The notes beneath the pieces are model-generated. The model was given only the letters and a program-made list of their open reading frames with translations. It ran no database searches and had not been told where the DNA came from. Positions 9,921 to 50,711 of a DNA stretch of 64,000 nucleotides are shown here, piece by piece. The DNA comes from a virus. Each line of letters opens with the position of its first letter. The stretch's first letter is position 1. The stretch lies in the IMG/VR virus record IMGVR_UViG_3300037851_000831, positions 1-64,000 of that record; one strand, given 5' to 3'. Both the position numbers and the translations under genes were made by a program.

Positions 9921-12230
9921 TTAGTCACAGGTAGTTAGACCTGAGAATGGTGAACCAAATGGTGTCGTTTGAACCTGAATTACTCCGATGATGTTGGAAC
10001 CGCTGTTAAAATAACCAGCAAACTCGACCGACTGACCACTAATGTTCGAATCGTATTGATTCGAAATCGATGAGGAATTCAATCGGAAATCATAAATCGA
10101 ACTCGTCGTTCTGATACCATTTGTAATGTCATCAAACGTGGCGATAACAGGTGTGTTGAAGAACGAACCAGTCGGAGTTAGAGTGATCGGATGGGAAGAA
10201 TCGACCTTGCATCGAACTGAGCAATTTGAGAATTCTCCGGTTGAAATTCCAACGGTCTCAACCAAAATAGACACCGTGTCTCTGTCGCCATAGGAATTTC
10301 CGATGGAAGTGAGGTAGGTGTACACCGCATCATCCAATCCAGAAACCGTATGAGAATAAGTGGATGCCGGACCAGTCATGGAATCCATGTAGAACACGCC
10401 GTTTCTATACAGCGAGCCGGTGAACGACGACCATGAACCCGGAGTTGTCTTGGTCGTTGTGAATTTCAGAGTTCGATTTGAACCATTTCCAAGAACAAAT
10501 CCGACGATCAACTTGTCATTACCCGTGTTTTCAGAAACTCCCGTTGCACCGAATGAGTTGAACACAAATTCTGTGAATGGTGTTGTCAGAGACACACCGG
10601 CTTCGTCGGATACATATCCTTCCATAGAAACTTGAAGGCTGCTCGAAAGACCCGGAGCGGTCAAATAGACTCGCTTTTGTGGAAGGAGATATCCTGCCAT
10701 AGCAATCGTTGTGATCGAACCTGATTGAAGGTTGATTGGTGCCAAGCGGCTACTGTCGTTTGGAGCGGAACCTAGGGATGCCGTGATATTCTGACTGGAG
10801 AGGAATCGATATGACGTAATGATTGCGCCGTCAGGAAGAATGTCGCGGGGAATTCCCTTCTCACCAAAATATCCGGAAGCGGTCAATGAATAATCTAGTA
10901 CGAAATCGGTGATCGGTCTCAATGTTGCAGAACCAGTCTCGGGTCTTACCAAGTGTGTTCTGTATGGAGAAACGTCTCTCCATTGAGACACGCCCGGTTG
11001 AACGCTCTCTGGCTCAAGGGCGAATACAGAACCCGTCGCTGTCGTCGAGCCCCATTTATCATCCCCATCGATTCCATACAAATGATTGCTGCGAACCTCG
11101 GTTGCGGAGAGAACCTTATTGTATAGGTAAAAGCAATAAACAGAGAAGCCAGACAGTTCTGCGGCGATATCCGTGTTTCTATTTACTGAGAAATACGTGT
11201 TGTTCACATAACTCGTCGCCCAAGAATCGGGAAATCCGAATGAAACTTCCTCAGTCGAAACCAACTCACCGTTGATGAAAATTCTTCCCGTATCGGAAGC
11301 GGAATTTCTGACAAACGCAATTGAAACAATTGAGTTTCCGTATGCCGCGAGAACTTCCTTGTACACCACCGAGCGGATTCCCGTACCAGAATTAATCTTG
11401 AATGCGAGGTCGGCACCTGACGGTGTTGGATTCAACGTAACAATGAACCCATCTGAAATTGATGCTGGTGTTTCTTTGTTTGGTCCCAGAGCAAATAGAA
11501 CTTGATCGGCATAGCGTGGAGCAAATTCAATTGGCGGAAGTTTTGCAACGAAGAACACACTGAAGTCATCCGTTCCGATCAACTGGCTTGGTACCATTTC
11601 GGAGTAGCATGATACGCTGTGTGTTGGGTACAACTCCAAACCATTTGTGTATCTCAGAGGTGCATCCGACAAACTCAAGACCTTGAAGAATGTTGTTGGA
11701 GACAAACTTCTCTGGTTTATGACAAAGACGGATGACGCCGTTCTTCCGATTGCTACGGGCTTTGATTGTTGACCGGTATTCTCGGTTGCAGGATCGATGG
11801 TGGTGAGTTGCCCGGAACCACTCAAGAAATACAACTGACCGGGAATAATTGAGGAAACACCGTCAAGTGTCGCGTTTCCACCGATCGCATACAGAAAATT
11901 GTCTGCGGATGGTACCGAATAGACGATGCCTACTCCTTCTGCCAAAGTGAAATCGTCGGGGGATGCAAGAACGAATTGACCGCCTTCATGGCGAATCACA
12001 TCCCCAACCGAAAAACCGTGCCCAACTTGAGTTACAGAATCGCCCAATCCAGAAACCGATCCTGATACAAGACCGGTGATGAAAGACGATAGTTCGTCTG
12101 ACTCCATCCACTTGATTTCATTGTATGGTGAAGATGGGGTACCGCCCACCTTCACGACAGGGAATAAATCGTTGGAGGCTAGTTCACTAGCGTAGGAACT
12201 GCTGAGTGCTGAGGTCTTTCTGCCGGGCAT
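9921..12230 (-). CDS. Putative tail fibre/virion protein with LamG-like domain, paralog of 8043-9887
   Basis: QVGHGFSVGDVI, RIFING, YLYNKVLS; shared FALEPxSVQP...WxDVSP block. Confidence 0.7.
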   Translation of the reverse strand: MPGRKTSALSSSYASELASNDLFPVVKVGGTPSSPYNEIKWMESDELSSFITGLVSGSVSGLGDSVTQVGHGFSVGDVIRHEGGQFVLASPDDFTLAEGVGIVYSVPSADNFLYAIGGNATLDGVSSIIPGQLYFLSGSGQLTTIDPATENTGQQSKPVAIGRTASSVFVINQRSLSPTTFFKVLSLSDAPLRYTNGLELYPTHSVSCYSEMVPSQLIGTDDFSVFFVAKLPPIEFAPRYADQVLFALGPNKETPASISDGFIVTLNPTPSGADLAFKINSGTGIRSVVYKEVLAAYGNSIVSIAFVRNSASDTGRIFINGELVSTEEVSFGFPDSWATSYVNNTYFSVNRNTDIAAELSGFSVYCFYLYNKVLSATEVRSNHLYGIDGDDKWGSTTATGSVFALEPESVQPGVSQWRDVSPYRTHLVRPETGSATLRPITDFVLDYSLTASGYFGEKGIPRDILPDGAIITSYRFLSSQNITASLGSAPNDSSRLAPINLQSGSITTIAMAGYLLPQKRVYLTAPGLSSSLQVSMEGYVSDEAGVSLTTPFTEFVFNSFGATGVSENTGNDKLIVGFVLGNGSNRTLKFTTTKTTPGSWSSFTGSLYRNGVFYMDSMTGPASTYSHTVSGLDDAVYTYLTSIGNSYGDRDTVSILVETVGISTGEFSNCSVRCKVDSSHPITLTPTGSFFNTPVIATFDDITNGIRTTSSIYDFRLNSSSISNQYDSNISGQSVEFAGYFNSGSNIIGVIQVQTTPFGSPFSGLTTCD

Positions 12231-12280
12231 ATTTATAATGGTGTAGGTCTACCACTATAAATATGCCCGGATGGAACATT

Positions 12281-13063
12281 TCAGTGAGATTTGTCTGGTG
12301 TCATTTTCTTTATCTTCTCGAAAATGTACTTCACCAGAGCACTTCTTACAATGTCATCCTCCGTGAACTCGAAGGTATAGATTCCATTGGCACGGCTTTC
12401 GTCATCATTGAAGTGGTCGAAGATTTTCTTAAAACCACTCTTTGAGTTGATATCGCTCTGGTAAGGGTCACCGGTCATGAATAACTTACTGAACTTACCG
12501 ACACGGGTCATCAGGGTGACGATTTCCTTGTGAGTCATGTTCTGAGCCTCGTCAGCGATGATGCACTTTACGTCCCAATTCAAGCCTCGAAGGAATCCGA
12601 CAGGAAGACCCTGAACTCTTTGGTCTGCCTGAAGCATTTTGATTTCCTGTGGAGGAAGCATTTCCATCATCTTCTGAACTAAAGGTTCGAGATATGGTGC
12701 CATCTTGTCAGCACTTTCACCGGGCAGGAATCCAAGTTTCGAATCGGAGGATTCGACCGCCGAACGAACGTAGATGATTTCGTCAAAACGCTTGTCGGAG
12801 AGAAGTGATAGTGCAACGTAAACCGCTAGATAGGTCTTGGCGGTACCGGCAGGACCACTCACAAGCATGAGTTTGGTGTCTTTCTGAAATGCTAAATCAA
12901 TGAATTTCTTTTGCTTCTCTGTGAAATCGTCTCTCTGAACAATTGAAAGTGGAAACTTGAGTTTTTCTCGCTGGAATACTTGTGGGCTTCGGTCTTTTTT
13001 CTCCTGTGTTGGATTGTGGTTTTTTTCTGACGGGTGCGGCTCACGTTTGTTTTTTCTACTCAT
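12281..13063 (-). CDS. phoH: PhoH-like ATPase
   Basis: GPAGTAKT Walker A, LGFLPG, LRG, DEAQN, TGDPYQSD, DIVRS. Confidence 0.95.
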   Translation of the reverse strand: MSRKNKREPHPSEKNHNPTQEKKDRSPQVFQREKLKFPLSIVQRDDFTEKQKKFIDLAFQKDTKLMLVSGPAGTAKTYLAVYVALSLLSDKRFDEIIYVRSAVESSDSKLGFLPGESADKMAPYLEPLVQKMMEMLPPQEIKMLQADQRVQGLPVGFLRGLNWDVKCIIADEAQNMTHKEIVTLMTRVGKFSKLFMTGDPYQSDINSKSGFKKIFDHFNDDESRANGIYTFEFTEDDIVRSALVKYIFEKIKKMTPDKSH

Positions 13064-38483: not shown

Positions 38484-38777
38484 TCAGTGGATTTTTCTTA
38501 GAAGGTCGAGACCCCGGTCAATCTCTGCACGCTGCTTCTCCAGTTCCTTGATCTTTCGATCCACCCAGCGAATTTCAAATTCCGCAATGGAGTAAACGTA
38601 CTTGAGAGGCAAGCCATCAGACAACCATATGCCGCCGATCTGCTGATCGCCGTTAAGATCGAAAAAACCGGTAAACTGAAACGCTTCCCAAATGATGCGT
38701 TTCGCATTTATGTATCGGCGACCCATGTAGTACTCGCCGATACGCAGTGTGTCGCGGTCTATTTCTTTGAAGGTCAT
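38484..38777 (-). CDS. Hypothetical protein
   Basis: ATGA overlap. Confidence 0.65.
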   Translation of the reverse strand: MTFKEIDRDTLRIGEYYMGRRYINAKRIIWEAFQFTGFFDLNGDQQIGGIWLSDGLPLKYVYSIAEFEIRWVDRKIKELEKQRAEIDRGLDLLRKIH

Positions 38778-39877
38778 TTTAGAATCTGGAAGACGAGTTT
38801 CTTGGTGTCATCCTCCGCGAGCGGCTTGCCGTCGAGAAGTTTGAACGCCATGCCCGAGCGGTTGGTGTTGCCCCACGCCTGAATGATCGCCAACGCCGCA
38901 TCCTTGCGCGGCTTGCCCTTCAACGGCTCCACGAAGGAACGCATTGACGAAAGAATCTTCTCAACCTCCTTGATGGAGTCGCAAATCTTGGAGATATGCG
39001 GAACCGCCATCGTCGCAATCTCGAAGTCGAAGGTATCCGTCAGGAAGTTGAAGAAATCCATGTACGAGAGGTAGCCACCCCGCTGCTTTGACTCACCGAG
39101 GTAAACGTCAAGAACTTTCTCGAACGAAGAAATCTCCGACTTCGCACGGTGGAGATAAAGATACTCCGCGCCCTTCACCTTGCGAACGTGCTGGTCGTGG
39201 TCGAAATAAACGCACAGACCCTCCTTACCCGCGAACGCCTCAACCGACGCCTTCATCTCTTCGATGGAGTTGTAGTTATAACGCTGCGGGCGACGGAGAC
39301 CAAACTCCGCTGCAATCTTGTCGAGTTCACGCTGCGACGTATAAGAATAGTCGTCGTGGTTGATGATGTTCGTGAGAACGATATCAACATCCGGACCGTA
39401 GTCGATAACGATACGGTTGGTCGGAGACAACCACTCGAAGACGAGCGTCGCCTTGCCCGCAAAACGCTGCTGGAGACGAAAGAGTGCGTACGAATACTTC
39501 TTCTCGATCAGGTCAATCTCCTGACCGTTCGCCTGCTCACGCGCATTGGTCGTGCCACGGGTACGCCAAATCCAAAAATCCAAGAGCCACGACAAAAGAA
39601 GGGTTGAACCGTCGAGTTTCTCCATCAGAGAAGAACCGTTCAGGTTGGTCGGGATCGGATCAATGTCAGGCTGCTCTTCCCAATTGAAGAACTTCTTGTA
39701 GGAAAGGGAAACCGGCTCACCATCCTTCGTCCAGACGGATGAGCGGAAGATCAGGTTGTGCTTGTTCCACTTCGCGCCGATGTGGATCGGCTGAACCAAA
39801 TAGCACTCAACACCCGCAATCGTATGCGGATGAATCATAAATGACTCACGGTCAATCGTGTCGAGGTTGATTTTCAT
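38774..39877 (-). CDS. RNA ligase, T4 Rnl1-like
   Basis: KFFN, EKLDGS (motif I), FEW, NRIV, EGLCV, KVK. Confidence 0.9.
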   Translation of the reverse strand: MKINLDTIDRESFMIHPHTIAGVECYLVQPIHIGAKWNKHNLIFRSSVWTKDGEPVSLSYKKFFNWEEQPDIDPIPTNLNGSSLMEKLDGSTLLLSWLLDFWIWRTRGTTNAREQANGQEIDLIEKKYSYALFRLQQRFAGKATLVFEWLSPTNRIVIDYGPDVDIVLTNIINHDDYSYTSQRELDKIAAEFGLRRPQRYNYNSIEEMKASVEAFAGKEGLCVYFDHDQHVRKVKGAEYLYLHRAKSEISSFEKVLDVYLGESKQRGGYLSYMDFFNFLTDTFDFEIATMAVPHISKICDSIKEVEKILSSMRSFVEPLKGKPRKDAALAIIQAWGNTNRSGMAFKLLDGKPLAEDDTKKLVFQILK

Positions 39878-39916
39878 GTGGAAGGAGTGTGGGGATTTTT
39901 TTGAACTTGTCAAGCC

Positions 39917-47214: not shown

Positions 47215-48291
47215 TTAGAACGACAACTCGTTCTTGAAGAACCAAGTGCGAGCGATATTTGAGATTTCGCCCTTGACCTTGGAGAACTCGATACCGGAGG
47301 CAGCAGCGGTGTCTGATTCCTCCTTCTCAACGTCACCCACGATCCACTTGATGAACTCACCGAGGGAACGCTTGTCGGTTGGGAGACCGCGCTGGCGAAG
47401 GATATCGATACCCTGACGGCAACGATTCTCAGTCACCACATTGGCGGCGAACTCCTTCATCGAAGCGACCTTCTCCACATCAACGGCGGCGAGAGTCTTG
47501 ACCTTCGAAGCAGAGTGCTTCTCACCCTTGACCTTGAAGCGGAACTTCGGGTCTTCCCAACCGGGAGTGATGCAGCGCCAGACGATGCCTTCACCGACAC
47601 CGGAGACGCCGAACGACCAAGCGACCGGGCAAAGTTCCTCAACCTTGATAGTCAGGTCGGAGAGTTGATTCTGCGACTTCTGTGGAAACTCGAAGTCGAT
47701 ATCAATCTCAGCGGTAGCGAAATCATAAATGTTGAAAATACCCGACGACTTGTTGTGGATACGCTTGACGACTTCCTTTGACTGCCACACGCCGTCAATA
47801 CGAATGTCGAAGATGACAAACATCTTGGGAAGTTCAGCAATGGCGACACCCTTCTGAATGTTGCCACCACACCACTCACCGTAGATGATGGTCTCGACAC
47901 CCTGCGGCATCTTGGGCGAGCCATCCGACCACTGCGAGTCGAAGAGAGGCTCCCAAATTTCACGACGACCGGCGTTGATCAGGTCAAGTTCGGGATTGCT
48001 CATGAAGCGAACAAAACCGGCATTGTCGTTGAGAATGTCAATGATCTTCTCGCGAGACTGAAACCAATGACCACTCTGACCATCGCCGTTGATGGAGTAA
48101 TCGCGAAGGAGACCGATGGCGGCGTTGGTGCCGTGGAGTTTCACGGTGCCTTCGAACTTCAGAGTCGGAAGGGGATTGGTGTTGTAGATCGGCTCGTCGT
48201 TTGCATCGCGCCCGGCGTAGCGAGCGGTGGAAGTGACGTGATGAACAGCATTGCGGAACTGCTCAATCGAAGGATAGGATACGTGTTTCAT
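47215..48291 (-). CDS. RNA ligase, Rnl2-like
   Basis: VKLHGTN, QSR, YGEWCG, GEGIVW, FKVKGEKH. Confidence 0.9.
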   Translation of the reverse strand: MKHVSYPSIEQFRNAVHHVTSTARYAGRDANDEPIYNTNPLPTLKFEGTVKLHGTNAAIGLLRDYSINGDGQSGHWFQSREKIIDILNDNAGFVRFMSNPELDLINAGRREIWEPLFDSQWSDGSPKMPQGVETIIYGEWCGGNIQKGVAIAELPKMFVIFDIRIDGVWQSKEVVKRIHNKSSGIFNIYDFATAEIDIDFEFPQKSQNQLSDLTIKVEELCPVAWSFGVSGVGEGIVWRCITPGWEDPKFRFKVKGEKHSASKVKTLAAVDVEKVASMKEFAANVVTENRCRQGIDILRQRGLPTDKRSLGEFIKWIVGDVEKEESDTAAASGIEFSKVKGEISNIARTWFFKNELSF

Positions 48292-48538
48292 GTTGGTGCT
48301 TTTTTATAGGTTTCCCGGATATTTGTCAAGCCCCGGGACGCAGATTTTCGGCTCCGGATGCGAACCCGGAGCCGAAGCACCACCTCGTTTTTCTTAACAG
48401 GAACGAAGAAACCTGTGGGGAGACCGGCAGTGATCCCTCCCCGCCATCTGATTTTAGGTTTCAGCAAACCGGGACGTTCTAGTTCGGGAGAACAGGAACA
48501 TTACCTCCACCATCTCCTGTGTAAACAGGAGCGGCGAA

Positions 48539-48629: not shown

Positions 48630-48700
48630 GTGCGGGAGTGAGAGTTGAACTCACAACAGCGTGGCTTATGAGACCCGCCGGGTTACCGAACCATCCCGCA
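48630..48700 (-). tRNA. tRNA with CAT anticodon (Met or Ile2), atypical D arm
   Basis: TGCGGGA/TCCCGCA acceptor, CTCATAA loop, GTGAG-TTCAACT-CTCAC T arm. Confidence 0.75.
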
Positions 48701-48709
48701 TAAGGAAAG

Positions 48710-48933
48710 ATTGTTTGGGACTTTTACCCCTCGTTGACGAACCCCCGTCGTGCTCAAATGCACTTCGAAGGGACGAGTTTGGCGCTCCCGTCAAGGAGAA
48801 CCCCTAGCCCAATCCCAACTGCGGTTTATCATTCACTATCGGGCATAGCCGCCCGACCGGATTACCGACCGGTTCTTCCTCCTTCAACGGAGGCGTGATA
48901 TTTGTCAGGAAAGGGAATTGATGTAAAGAACAG
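48710..48933 (-). ncRNA. Structured RNA between promoter/boxA and tRNAs
   Basis: Promoter at 48962, boxA-like CTGTTCTTTACA, at least 6 hairpins, no ORF. Confidence 0.55.
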
Positions 48934-48989
48934 AGATAACTATGAGCATCCAGCGACAAAAGTCAAGCCTTCAGTTCATTTTTATTTCG

Positions 48990-49805
48990 GAAAGAAGAAG
49001 AGGGGGAGTCGTTCCTCGCCTTGCGGCGACGCCAACACCCAACAGCGGGAGCCGTCCGGAAAGGAACCTTGCTGTTGTTCCGGAGGACTCCTCCCCCTCG
49101 ATTACAATAAACAAAGGGTGCCGAGGGCGGGTCGTTAACCCACTATAAAGGATTCAGGCTTCAATTCCCTCCTCCCTCTTGTTTCCCCTCAGCCATCATT
49201 GAAGTTTTACCGGCTGAGGGAGGCGTCGTTGCGCACTCTCCACGGCATGATGATTCAACTTACTACCCAACGCCCTACCCGGTGGCGAGATTCGCGTTTA
49301 GCACCCCCATATTTATTATACAGGCAGTACCCGCCAGCGATTTCCCTCGGCGGTTTCATTCATTATTTTAGTCATGCCACTTAGACATTTAATTGTTCGG
49401 TGTTTGGTTGCGAACCAGAGGAATTCGGTCTTTTACCCTCGATACGTCGATCTTGGCGAGCCCCGTGACGCTTTCCCGGAGAAACATTCCCGAGTCGGCG
49501 CTTCGACTATGCCGGAACTGTGAATCCTCTAAAGGCCCGTCGGTTCGGGATTTCCACCCAAAGCGGTGTGGGGGATGCTCCCACTCTTCACATTTTCCAG
49601 CCACATCCCGTTACCTCCCACTATAGCCTTCTTTCAGGCTGTCACACGTCCTACCATGTTGCAGGCAAGGCGTTGAGTAGTAAGTTGAATCTGTAAAGAA
49701 CGAAAATTGCTGCTGGATTTCCGGAACGATCCGAAGACCGTGAGGACCAGCCGTCCCTCGTGTTCGTGGGTCTTAGCCACTACTTGCCGGGTGTTCCTAA
49801 GAACA
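48990..49805 (-). ncRNA. Large structured non-coding RNA locus (~800 nt)
   Basis: Promoter at 49836, boxA-like 49691-49702, ~30 bp terminal helix 49662-49691/49252-49281 with only G-U deviations, no credible ORF. Confidence 0.75.
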
Positions 49806-49835
49806 TTGATGACTATGACACGTTTTCTGATTTTG

Positions 49836-50711
49836 TCAAGCCTTCACCAAAAGATTTCTCGGAAAAAGTGCAGCCTTCCGATTCTCGATGTAGGCATCCA
49901 GCGACATGCTGAAGGCAAAGAAATCCTGATGGAGATACGCCTGCCGCGTCACGATATCGTGGCCGTGGTTGAAGATCATTTCCTTCTGCACGAGAAACGA
50001 AATCGCGTCTCCGGTGATGGCCCCTGCCCGACCGAACGGGTTAGCCCAAAACCAAAGATACTCGAACCGAGCGAGCATTTCAATCCGTCGCTCAAGATCG
50101 ATGCTCTCATCGCGAGCCTGCCCGAAGTAGTATTCGCACATGTGCACCATCGAAGGAACATCGCCGTCGTGAACGTGAACGATCAGGAACAGGTCGGGAT
50201 TGTGAATTGGGCGAATGACCAAGCACTGCTCATTCAGCGACGGGCACACCATCATGCGCCACACGCGGCACGTGTGCATTCCCGTGAAGGTAGGAAGGTC
50301 GGGAACCAGCGGAGCATCGACGGTGCCGAAGTGATAACTGTGCACCTCAGCCTTGAACTGACCGAACTCCGATGACAGGTCGAGGCACTTCCAAAGTTCT
50401 CCAGAGCGAGGATGCTTGCGGATTCCCCAACTGTAAGAAAGTGAGCGGCTCGTTCCCTCGAAGCGACGCTTCCAGTAAAGCACACCATCCTGCACCATCT
50501 GCTTGGCGAAGAACGTGTTATACTTGTGCGCGAGCGAATAGCGCAACGAGAAGATATCCGTCGCGAGTGTCTTAACCGTTAATTGTGAGCCCTTTGCGAC
50601 AGGATACGTGCAAAGTTCGTTATTTTTAACGAATGCAGTAAACGTCTCAAAGTATTCTCTACCAAGAGGATCGTAAGGATACTCGCAAAGAGCGGCTGGT
50701 GTGAAAGTCAT
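49836..50711 (-). CDS. Putative Fido-fold protein, AvrB-like
   Basis: YLWFWANPFGRAGAITGD and QDFFAFSMSLDAY; lacks canonical HPFxxGNGR. Confidence 0.55.
   Translation of the reverse strand: MTFTPAALCEYPYDPLGREYFETFTAFVKNNELCTYPVAKGSQLTVKTLATDIFSLRYSLAHKYNTFFAKQMVQDGVLYWKRRFEGTSRSLSYSWGIRKHPRSGELWKCLDLSSEFGQFKAEVHSYHFGTVDAPLVPDLPTFTGMHTCRVWRMMVCPSLNEQCLVIRPIHNPDLFLIVHVHDGDVPSMVHMCEYYFGQARDESIDLERRIEMLARFEYLWFWANPFGRAGAITGDAISFLVQKEMIFNHGHDIVTRQAYLHQDFFAFSMSLDAYIENRKAALFPRNLLVKA

What the first reader, a model, noticed from the sequence alone, without database searches (positions are those of the whole stretch)
49252..49702. rRNA-operon-like ncRNA: boxA followed by a ~30 bp stem enclosing a ~380 nt structured RNA
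Seen on the minus strand: a boxA-like CGTTCTTTACA is followed directly by GATTCAACTTACTACTCAACGCCTTGCCTG (49691-49662), which pairs with CGGGTAGGGCGTTGGGTAGTAAGTTGAATC (49281-49252). Every deviation from Watson-Crick pairing is a G-U pair on this strand, which points to an RNA helix rather than a DNA repeat. Internal helices exist (AGCATCCCC/GGGGGTGCT; AGCC..GGCT). A GGGTGGAAATCCCGAACC segment is loosely reminiscent of group II intron domain I. Established: boxA plus a long RNase III stem is how rRNAs are framed, and large phage ncRNAs such as GOLLD and ROOL occur beside tRNA genes. Inference: an abundant processed RNA of a class I cannot assign. The adjacent Rnl2-like ligase could act on it, for example to circularise it.
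Basis: partly seen in the sequence, partly recalled or inferred. Interest (0 to 1): 0.85.

Follow-up and report, generated by a model that had tools for sequence, protein, structure and literature searches.

The report
Orphan stalk-clamped phage noncoding RNA
A gene-free stretch of an uncultured T4-like phage is laid out like a small ribosomal-RNA operon (promoter, boxA word, 30-bp end-to-end stem) around a 380-base RNA of no known family; the feature is real and probably made as RNA, but its job is unknown and no distant relatives were found to prove its fold.

Summary
On the minus strand, GTTCTTTACA (49701-49692) directly precedes a 30-bp helix (49691-49662 with 49281-49252). It has 26 Watson-Crick pairs and 4 G-U pairs, all G-U only on that strand, and it encloses 380 ORF-free bases.

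The unit has its own promoter (49839-49812) and a terminator-like end near 48990. Only the phage's four ORF-less units carry GTTCTT(T) after this promoter type.

No Rfam family matches. GOLLD, ROOL, group I and II introns, RNase P and manA are excluded as members.

The only relatives are partial, near-identical contigs from sequencing runs. They show frame-breaking indels, U-G to C-G changes, one C-G to U-A double change and a hairpin lengthened by self-complementary insertions. A root metatranscriptome covers the unit at depth 30-47 and none of the flanking genes.

Caveats: the 380-nt interior alone folds no better than shuffles (z -0.83). No distant homologue was found, so the fold is unproven. 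The RNA ligase is not linked to the element.

Two metatranscriptome contigs join the stalk's inner 5' arm to downstream sequence. This could mean tandem or reshuffled cassettes, or circular RNA; it is unresolved.

Unchecked notes of this scan describe similar boxA-plus-stalk RNAs in other phages.

Verdict: a real, orphan, rRNA-style phage ncRNA. Interest is moderate.

The parts
49812..49839 (-). Promoter-like site P1: TTGACA, 16 nt, CATAGT with a TG extension. GTTCTTAGGA follows 7 nt after the -10 hexamer.
   Evidence: The composite pattern TTGACW-N15-17-CATAGT-N5-9-GTTCTT occurs twice in the window and in none of 100 shuffles.
49703..49805 (-). Roughly 100-nt leader with local hairpins. It differs in the X4 relative.
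   Evidence: Fold. In one search, X4 homology begins at 49706 and 60 unlike letters lie beyond it.
49692..49702 (-). boxA-like word C-GTTCTTTACA, directly abutting the stalk.
   Evidence: An exact second copy lies at 48931-48922 after P2. It matches 9 of 10 bases of the functional Legionella boxA GTTCTTTAAAA (PMC7862264).
49662..49691 (-). 5' arm of the 30-bp stalk.
49282..49661 (-). 380-nt core with several hairpins. Best supported are the domain 49601-49511 and the hairpins 49353-49331 and 49333-49301.
   Evidence: Folds; variant analysis. No Rfam hit. No ORF with a homologue.
49252..49281 (-). 3' arm of the stalk.
   Evidence: The X2 DNA contig 49017-49251 stops exactly at its outer edge.
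48989..49251 (-). 3' domain B of the same unit. It is structured (z -2.5) and ends in the helix 49099-49085/49010-49000 followed by a U-rich run (48999-48989), which looks like a terminator.
   Evidence: It is 100% identical in the X2 and X5 contigs. Terminator function is inferred.
48922..48966 (-). Context: the next unit's promoter P2 (TTGACT, 16 nt, CATAGT) with an exact GTTCTTTACA. It heads the tRNA-like, tRNA-Gly and wcaG-like unit.
47215..48291 (-). Context only: Rnl2-type RNA ligase with its own promoter near 48330. It is not shown to act on the RNA.
   Evidence: PF09414, E 2.7e-10. phrog_548 over its full length, E 4e-58. Relatives lack the element.

Best explanation
This is a stand-alone non-coding RNA gene of an uncultured T4-like phage, expressed in the way bacteria express ribosomal RNA.

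Proposed mechanism:
- A host-type promoter (P1) starts a transcript of about 815 nt.
- The boxA-type word GTTCTTTACA, placed directly before the stalk, would load the host Nus factors. That would let the untranslated transcript escape Rho and fold with its ends held together.
- The 5' and 3' flanks of the 380-nt core pair into a 30-bp double-stranded stalk. The stalk is the expected substrate of host RNase III, which would release a stable core RNA of about 410 nt capped by the inner half of the stalk.

What is shown and what is inferred:
- Shown: the layout, the strand-specific helix, the absence of coding signal, and the RNA's presence in an RNA library.
- Inferred from the rrn paradigm: Nus loading and RNase III cutting.
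- Unknown: what the mature RNA does. My low-confidence guess is a stable scaffold or decoy for a host RNA-binding or translation factor. The guess rests only on its company: tRNAs, a wcaG-like RNA and two RNA ligases.

The unit from boxA to the 3' arm (49706-49252) behaves as a discrete module in relatives.
For: Layout and helix:
- Promoter, boxA word, stalk and terminator-like end all lie on the minus strand.
- All 4 non-Watson-Crick pairs are G-U on that strand; duplex energy is -50.9 against -36.3 kcal/mol.

The boxA-type word:
- 14 promoter-type matches occur in the 97 kb. Only the 4 without an ORF carry GTTCTT(T) within 21 nt after the -10. None of the 10 others has it downstream, and 6 of those go straight into an ATG.
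- A near-identical word is a working boxA in Legionella (PMC7862264).

No coding signal:
- The ORFs have no Pfam hit and no homologue among 5.8 billion proteins.
- Relatives carry a 2-nt deletion and 2-, 6- and 2-nt insertions.

Structure-compatible variation:
- In the two-sequence consensus folds, five paired positions differ on one side only and all stay paired: four U-G or G-U to C-G or G-C in X5 and one G-C to G-U in X4.
- X4 has one C-G to U-A double change (49565/49538).
- X4 has a double change (49586 and 49525) that adds a pair to a helix.
- In X5 a hairpin's tip is replaced by a longer self-complementary one (-25.2 against -11.9 kcal/mol; 1 of 500 shuffled tips is as stable).

RNA evidence:
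- Root metatranscriptome contigs cover 49117-49428 and 49648-49678 at depth 30-47. Nothing covers the ligase or the upstream gene within the 3.6 kb laid.

Module edges:
- X4 homology starts 5 nt before boxA.
- The X2 contig ends at the stalk's outer base.
Against: - The interior alone is not more stable than shuffled sequence (z -0.83).
- No homologue beyond about 90% identity was found in IMG/VR, JGI metagenome contigs, GTDB genomes, GenBank phages or 42 phage records (38 picked by tail-sheath similarity). Covariation therefore rests on two partial variants, and the consensus fold was chosen using those same variants.
- Contigs cannot show RNA ends, strand or level, and DNA can be present in an RNA library.
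- No RNase III gene is in the record, so host supply is assumed.
- BoxA function is judged by resemblance only, and the host is unknown.
- The back-joined contigs are not predicted by this simple model.
Confidence: 0.55

Rival explanations
1. Cassette or tandem-array reading (an extension of the best explanation). The boxA-stalk-core-stalk unit is a swappable RNA cassette. In relatives the same inner stalk is preceded by other modules or by another copy, so the transcript carries several stalk-clamped RNAs in a row, each excised like 16S and 23S rRNA.
For: - Two X5 contigs converge on the same 30-mer of the 5' arm. One comes from domain B (125 nt, 100% identical). The other comes from the 3' end of a core copy through 72 unaligned letters.
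- The break points 49265 and 49678 are base-paired partners.
- X4 and X2 give sharp module edges at 49706 and 49252 (all).
- Unchecked notes of this scan describe 'same stalk, different insert' in other phages.
Against: - Only k-mer contigs from one RNA library support it, and the 72 letters and the continuation could not be read.
- No second copy exists in this phage's 97 kb.
- No other record with this stalk was found.
Confidence: 0.3
2. Circular or permuted RNA. After cutting, a phage RNA ligase (Rnl1- or Rnl2-type) joins a downstream 3' end (49117, or the end of a 72-nt piece) to the 5' end created inside the stalk (49676-49678). The result would be an RNA circle of about 500-560 nt.
For: - 'Goes back' joints appear in metatranscriptome contigs at depth 31-47.
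- The phage has two RNA ligases.
- The joint lies near the middle of the stalk, where RNase III would be expected to cut (inference).
Against: - The same joints arise from tandem DNA copies.
- By eye I found no complementary splint that would hold 49117 next to 49676.
- The junction base is C, so it is not a group I intron circle.
- The expected identical core contig is missing from the run.
- The ligase is not syntenic with the element in relatives.
Confidence: 0.08
3. The stalk is a regulatory RNase III site in a long leader, and the interior has no function of its own. It would tune the stability or read-through of the transcript towards the tRNA unit.
For: - The interior is not thermodynamically special.
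- The unit sits directly upstream of the tRNA unit.
- RNase III sites in phage early transcripts are classical (T7, lambda; own knowledge).
Against: - A terminator-like end and a second full promoter (P2) separate it from the tRNAs.
- Relatives vary in hairpin tips in structure-preserving ways, while 120-nt and 50-nt blocks stay identical.
Confidence: 0.15
4. A DNA-level element: a MITE-like transposon, an invertible switch or a replication-origin structure bounded by 30-bp inverted repeats.
For: - The inverted repeat is perfect in length, and relatives show sharp edges at it.
- The interior has A+T-rich patches.
Against: - All four mismatches are transitions that give G-U on the transcribed strand. 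My estimate is roughly 1-2% by chance.
- There is no second copy anywhere and no target duplication.
- The record holds no resolvase, integrase or reverse transcriptase.
- No strand-change joints were seen.
- GC skew shows no turn here.
Confidence: 0.08
5. A diverged member of a catalogued RNA class that the models miss, such as a group I or II intron, RNase P, GOLLD or ROOL, or manA.
Against: - No such hit even at E<=10 with lax filters on 836 and 2001 bases.
- There are no flanking exons, no intron-encoded protein and no reverse transcriptase.
Confidence: 0.03

Closest known systems
Pre-rRNA leader-trailer processing stalk with boxA (bacterial rrn operons; Nus-factor antitermination complex; RNase III)
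   Same: - A strong promoter and an untranslated transcript.
- A boxA-type word just 5' of a long helix formed by sequences flanking the mature RNA.
- The helix is long enough (30 bp) for RNase III.
   Different: - The enclosed RNA is 380 nt, unrelated to rRNA and phage-encoded.
- Neither Nus binding nor cleavage has been tested.
- The host and its own boxA are unknown.
GOLLD (RF02032) and ROOL (RF03087), large ornate RNAs of phages and prophages
   Same: - Large ORF-free RNA genes in phage DNA beside tRNA genes.
- Function unknown.
   Different: - No covariance-model match.
- It is smaller.
- The interior is not demonstrably ornate (z -0.83).
- No family of homologues is known.
Stable RNAs of the T4 tRNA region (species 1 and 2, rnaC/rnaD; own knowledge)
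   Same: A T4-like phage makes non-tRNA stable RNAs of unknown function, co-located with tRNA genes and cut out of longer precursors by host nucleases.
   Different: - Those RNAs are about 120-140 nt and lie inside the tRNA precursor.
- Here there is a separate promoter-to-terminator unit, a 30-bp stalk and a boxA word.
- No sequence relation was tested, because no reference sequence was at hand.
boxA-led CRISPR arrays (Legionella str. Lens, PMC7862264; Salmonella, own knowledge)
   Same: A boxA word (GTTCTTTAAAA in Legionella) placed ahead of a long untranslated RNA keeps transcription going.
   Different: Those arrays are host-encoded and repeat-spacer in structure. Here the RNA is a single structured one in a phage.

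Membership tests
rRNA-operon-type boxA / Nus antitermination leader | A boxA word close to the bacterial consensus, downstream of a promoter in an untranslated unit | tested here: met
   GTTCTTTACA lies at 49701-49692 and at 48931-48922. GTTCTT(T) follows all 4 ORF-less promoters and none of the 10 others. It matches 9 of 10 bases of the functional Legionella boxA.
rRNA-operon-type boxA / Nus antitermination leader | NusB/NusE binding and Rho-resistant transcription | not testable with these tools
   This needs EMSA or in vivo read-through assays, and the host is unknown.
RNase III leader-trailer processing stalk | At least about 20 bp of uninterrupted dsRNA formed by the 5' and 3' flanks of the mature RNA | tested here: met
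   30 consecutive pairs, -50.9 kcal/mol, present in both the MFE and centroid folds.
RNase III leader-trailer processing stalk | Staggered cleavage leaving 2-nt 3' overhangs | not testable with these tools
   Only contigs were available, and they cannot show RNA ends.
RNase III leader-trailer processing stalk | Pairing kept in relatives through compensatory change | tested here: inconclusive
   The X4 5' arm is identical. X5 keeps the inner 17 bp, and its homology breaks at paired positions 49265 and 49678, but the replacing letters could not be read.
GOLLD / ROOL / OLE / HEARO / raiA (Rfam large RNAs) | A match to the family covariance model | tested here: not met
   No hit at the gathering score or at E<=10.
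Group II intron | A domain V/VI or D1-D4 model match, a GUGYG 5' end, and an intron-encoded reverse transcriptase | tested here: not met
   No Rfam hit. No RVT_1 in the record. GUGUG occurs inside the core, not at a boundary.
Group I intron | A core model match, and an interrupted host gene with exons | tested here: not met
   No Rfam hit. The element lies between a promoter and a terminator-like end with no ORF or tRNA exons. The back-joint base is C, not G.
MITE / TIR transposon | Terminal inverted repeats together with target-site duplication and multiple copies | tested here: not met
   Inverted repeats are present. The flanks (TTTACA on one side, ATCATG on the other) are not duplicated. 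There is no other copy in the genome or the collections.
Invertible DNA switch | A site-specific recombinase, and both orientations present in reads | tested here: not met
   No Resolvase or Phage_integrase in the 97 kb. No strand-change joints in four runs, contigs only. The record is about 47% complete.
Ligase-made circular RNA | A back-splice-type junction present in RNA and absent from DNA of the same sample | tested here: inconclusive
   Back joints were seen in one RNA library's contigs.
Y RNA / Ro (Rsr) system | A terminal stem, a TROVE-domain partner and a Y RNA model match | tested here: not met
   A terminal stem is present. There is no TROVE gene in the record and no Rfam Y RNA or YrlA hit.
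manA / wcaG cyanophage RNA motifs | A covariance-model match within the element | tested here: not met
   None within 48980-49815. A separate wcaG-like match (38.2 bits, gathering score 42) lies 800 nt downstream at 48369-48473.

The most novel reading that the evidence does not exclude
The boxA-stalk-core unit is a mobile RNA cassette that relatives carry in tandem or in other orders. The back-joined metatranscriptome contigs would be true RNA circles or permuted RNAs, made when RNase III opens the stalk and one of the phage's two RNA ligases reseals the ends. That would give T4-type Rnl enzymes a natural substrate.
Probability: 0.08. Interest if true: 0.85.

Novelty: new variant of a known kind. 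Interest (0 to 1): 0.5.

Why it matters
If confirmed, this shows a lytic phage borrowing the full rRNA production line (promoter, boxA/Nus, RNase III stalk) to make a large stable RNA of its own. It would add to the few large phage RNAs with no known role.

The clean module edges and the odd back-joined RNA contigs hint at exchangeable RNA cassettes, or even circular RNA, next to RNA-repair enzymes whose natural substrates are still unknown.

As it stands it is a single orphan locus. Its value is as one more instance of a recurring phage layout that this scan has flagged elsewhere in unchecked notes, and as a cloneable test case for boxA and RNase III dependence.

Tried and rejected
Searches for relatives by synteny:
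- Relatives of the ligase (L004-L006) are densely coding upstream and have no element.
- The upstream 291-aa protein has no IMG/VR relative.
- Its metagenome relatives L010-L016 (30-35% identity) are high-GC bacterial contigs with no element.

Exact-pattern scans from five parts of the unit:
- Scans of viral contigs, metagenome contigs and genome contigs gave nothing or chance hits.
- The 17-mer GGTGGAAATCCCGAACC hit three IMG/VR contigs, within chance expectation. L008 and L009 share 20 nt in an ORF-poor stretch but show no further similarity, no Rfam hit and no R1 hit.
- The 20-mer hit in a Silicimonas MAG lies in a coding region.

Whole-record searches:
- blastn of 38 related phage records chosen by tail sheath found only E>0.04 scraps.
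- A 91-nt covariance model of the core found nothing in 42 records.
- GenBank phages matched only the tRNA-Gly.

Other checks:
- The scan's own index has no look-alike in other genomes.
- The small word shares of runs X2-X5 are not used as evidence of habitat.
- Stretches without contig cover (for example 49429-49647 in X5) are not read as absence.
- The helix AGCAUCCCC/GGGGGUGCU was rejected in favour of two local hairpins.
- No phage RNase III, reverse transcriptase, TROVE protein, resolvase or integrase is in the 97 kb held. The record is only about 47% complete.

Full report
**What the window is.** The window is the first 64 kb of a 96.8-kb IMG/VR virus record estimated to be 47% complete. 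It encodes a 989-aa tail sheath. The nearest cultured relative is Microcystis phage Mel-JY01 at 47% identity, and hundreds of uncultured contigs match at 45-64%. It also carries PhoH, a DNA methylase and two RNA ligases: Rnl1/gp63-type at 38774-39913 and Rnl2-type at 47215-48291. It is therefore a large T4-like myovirus of an unknown host.

**The observation.** On the minus strand, CGTTCTTTACA (49702-49692) is followed directly by a 30-nt arm (49691-49662). That arm pairs without interruption with 49281-49252.
- There are 26 Watson-Crick and 4 G-U pairs, at stalk positions 16, 24, 26 and 29.
- On the plus strand the four become A-C mismatches. Duplex energy is -50.9 against -36.3 kcal/mol.
- All four deviations are transitions that fall as G-U on the one strand that also carries the promoter. 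I estimate this has about a 1-2% chance for a decaying DNA repeat (my estimate, not a tool result).
- The arms' 15-mer occurs nowhere else in the window, and none of 100 shuffles gave two hits.
- This is the only long-range inverted repeat of at least 85% complementarity in 64 kb and in the remaining 33 kb.

**The transcription unit**.
- P1 is TTGACA, 16 nt, CATAGT at 49839-49812.
- A leader of about 100 nt follows, then the boxA-type word, the stalk and core, and a 260-nt structured 3' domain (z -2.5).
- The 3' domain ends in a long helix plus a U-rich run near 48990.
- A second promoter of the same type (48966-48939) follows, with an exact GTTCTTTACA at its start site. It heads a tRNA-like RNA, tRNA-Gly and a wcaG-like RNA.
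- A third promoter near 48330 serves the ligase.
- Across the whole record this promoter type occurs 14 times. The four copies not followed by an ORF (two here, two at 59098 and 59481) carry GTTCTT(T) 6-21 nt after the -10 hexamer.
- None of the other ten has it downstream, and six of those run straight into an ATG.
- A nearly identical word, GTTCTTTAAAA, is a working boxA ahead of a Legionella CRISPR array (PMC7862264).
- The boxA reading is thus supported by resemblance and by its exclusive association with untranslated units. It is not supported by any binding test.

**Not a known RNA, and not coding.**
- Rfam 15 gives nothing on the element at gathering scores, or at E<=10 with lax filters on 2001 and 836 bases.
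- This excludes membership of GOLLD, ROOL, OLE, HEARO, RNase P, tmRNA, group I and II introns, Y RNA and manA.
- The record has no reverse transcriptase, TROVE protein, RNase III, resolvase or integrase.
- The short ORFs across the element have no Pfam hit and no homologue among 5.8 billion proteins.
- Relatives carry indels of 2, 2, 6 and 2 nt inside those ORFs.

**How structured is the core?**
- The whole element folds with z -3.9, the plus strand with z -2.0, and the whole unit with z -4.9.
- The 380-nt interior alone gives z -0.83. Thermodynamics supports the stalk, not an 'ornate' core.
- The only comparative data are two partial variants rebuilt from the differences listed.
- The viral-metagenome contig X4 (49475-49706) is identical over 49587-49706 and 49475-49524. 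It packs 10 substitutions and a 2-nt deletion into 49525-49586.
- Among the X4 changes are a C-G to U-A double change (49565/49538), one G-C to G-U change in the consensus fold, and a pair of changes (49586, 49525) that lengthens a helix by one pair.
- The metatranscriptome variant X5 (49265-49428) has four one-sided changes that turn U-G or G-U pairs into C-G or G-C.
- In X5 the apical part of hairpin 49333-49301 is replaced by a longer, self-complementary sequence: -25.2 against -11.9 kcal/mol, with only 1 of 500 shuffles of the new tip as stable.
- This is the pattern expected of an RNA with variable hairpin tips. It is weak evidence: there are only two variants, and the consensus fold was chosen using them.

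**Expression.** In the 3.6 kb laid, the root metatranscriptome X5 has contigs only on 49117-49428 and 49648-49678, at depth 30-47. It has none on the ligase or the upstream gene. This fits an abundant RNA. However, contigs give no ends, strand or level, and DNA can be present in such libraries.

**The unexplained joints.**
- Both X5 contigs end in the same 30-mer of the 5' arm (49677-49648, one mismatch).
- One contig arrives from domain B (49241-49117, 100% identical). The other arrives from the 3' half of a core copy, through the inner 17 nt of the 3' arm and 72 unaligned letters.
- The break points 49265 and 49678 are partners in the stalk.
- In that sample the inner stalk is therefore kept, but what lies outside it differs.
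- Tandem or reshuffled copies at the DNA level explain this. It would resemble the 'same stalk, swapped insert' cassettes described in unchecked notes of this scan for other phages.
- A circular or permuted RNA explains it equally on paper.
- I found no splint complementarity for a 49117|49676 ligation, and the junction base is C.
- Two sharp edges add to the picture of a discrete boxA-stalk-core-stalk module: X4 homology starts 5 nt before boxA (49706), and a wetland DNA contig ends at 49251.
- The caps on read laying and the look-up of sequencing runs, and the closure of the look-up of encoding contigs, prevented a decision.

**Relatives.** None beyond about 90% identity were found.
- Exact patterns from five parts of the unit found nothing real in IMG/VR, JGI metagenome contigs or GTDB genomes.
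- blastn against GenBank phages hit only the tRNA.
- blastn of 38 related phage records, and a covariance model run over those plus four more, were empty.
- Neighbours of the ligase and of the 291-aa upstream protein in other contigs lack the element.
- The ligase is therefore not linked to the RNA.

**Verdict.** The feature is real and is best read as an rRNA-style, boxA-led, stalk-clamped phage non-coding RNA gene of no known family.
The group II hint is wrong. The ligase idea is unsupported but not excluded.
- Nus loading and RNase III excision are inferred from the rrn paradigm. The RNA's function is unknown.
- The scan has noted similar layouts on other phage DNA in unchecked notes. This instance is an orphan with moderate interest.

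Noticed in passing
window 48630-48701 (-): A tRNA-like RNA with a good acceptor stem and T arm and a CUCAUAA anticodon loop (CAU), but an odd D arm. ARAGORN does not call it, and Rfam gives only 19 bits to tRNA-Sec.
   Followed up: partly
window 48369-48473 (-): A wcaG RNA-like match (38.2 bits, gathering score 42, E 4.5e-5) just upstream of the ligase promoter. A near-identical soil DNA contig (run X3) lacks 54 nt inside it (48417-48470).
   Followed up: partly
window 46329, 40239, 37340, 35938, 32160 (-); genome 81758 (+): The phage promoter type TTGACT-N17-CATAGT/CATACT is followed by an ATG only 6-7 nt after the -10 hexamer. At least six protein genes therefore look leaderless.
   Followed up: partly
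window 49836-50711 (-): A 291-aa protein with no Pfam or PHROG hit has an invariant NPFGRAGAITGD block in its four homologues. Its 30-35% relatives sit in high-GC bacterial metagenome contigs, not in phages.
   Followed up: partly
window 59098-60019 (+): Two more ORF-less units have the same promoter type and GTTCTTTTCA or GTTCTTTGATCA words. Together with the two units here, these are the only four such units in the 97-kb record.
   Followed up: partly
L009:5365-7400 and L008 (IMG/VR, about 40-kb near-complete phages): An ORF-poor stretch of more than 2 kb holds tRNA-like pieces that neither ARAGORN nor Rfam calls. It shares the 20-mer GGGTGGAAATCCCGAACCG with the core, which I judged to be chance.
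   Followed up: partly
window 12209-12284: A 34-nt near-palindrome (79% complementary, 8-nt spacer) lies at the junction of two large minus-strand genes.
   Followed up: no
window 48990-49251 (-): The 3' domain of the same unit is 100% identical in contigs from a wetland DNA run and a root RNA run, while the core beside it varies by about 10%. The conservation is mosaic.
   Followed up: partly
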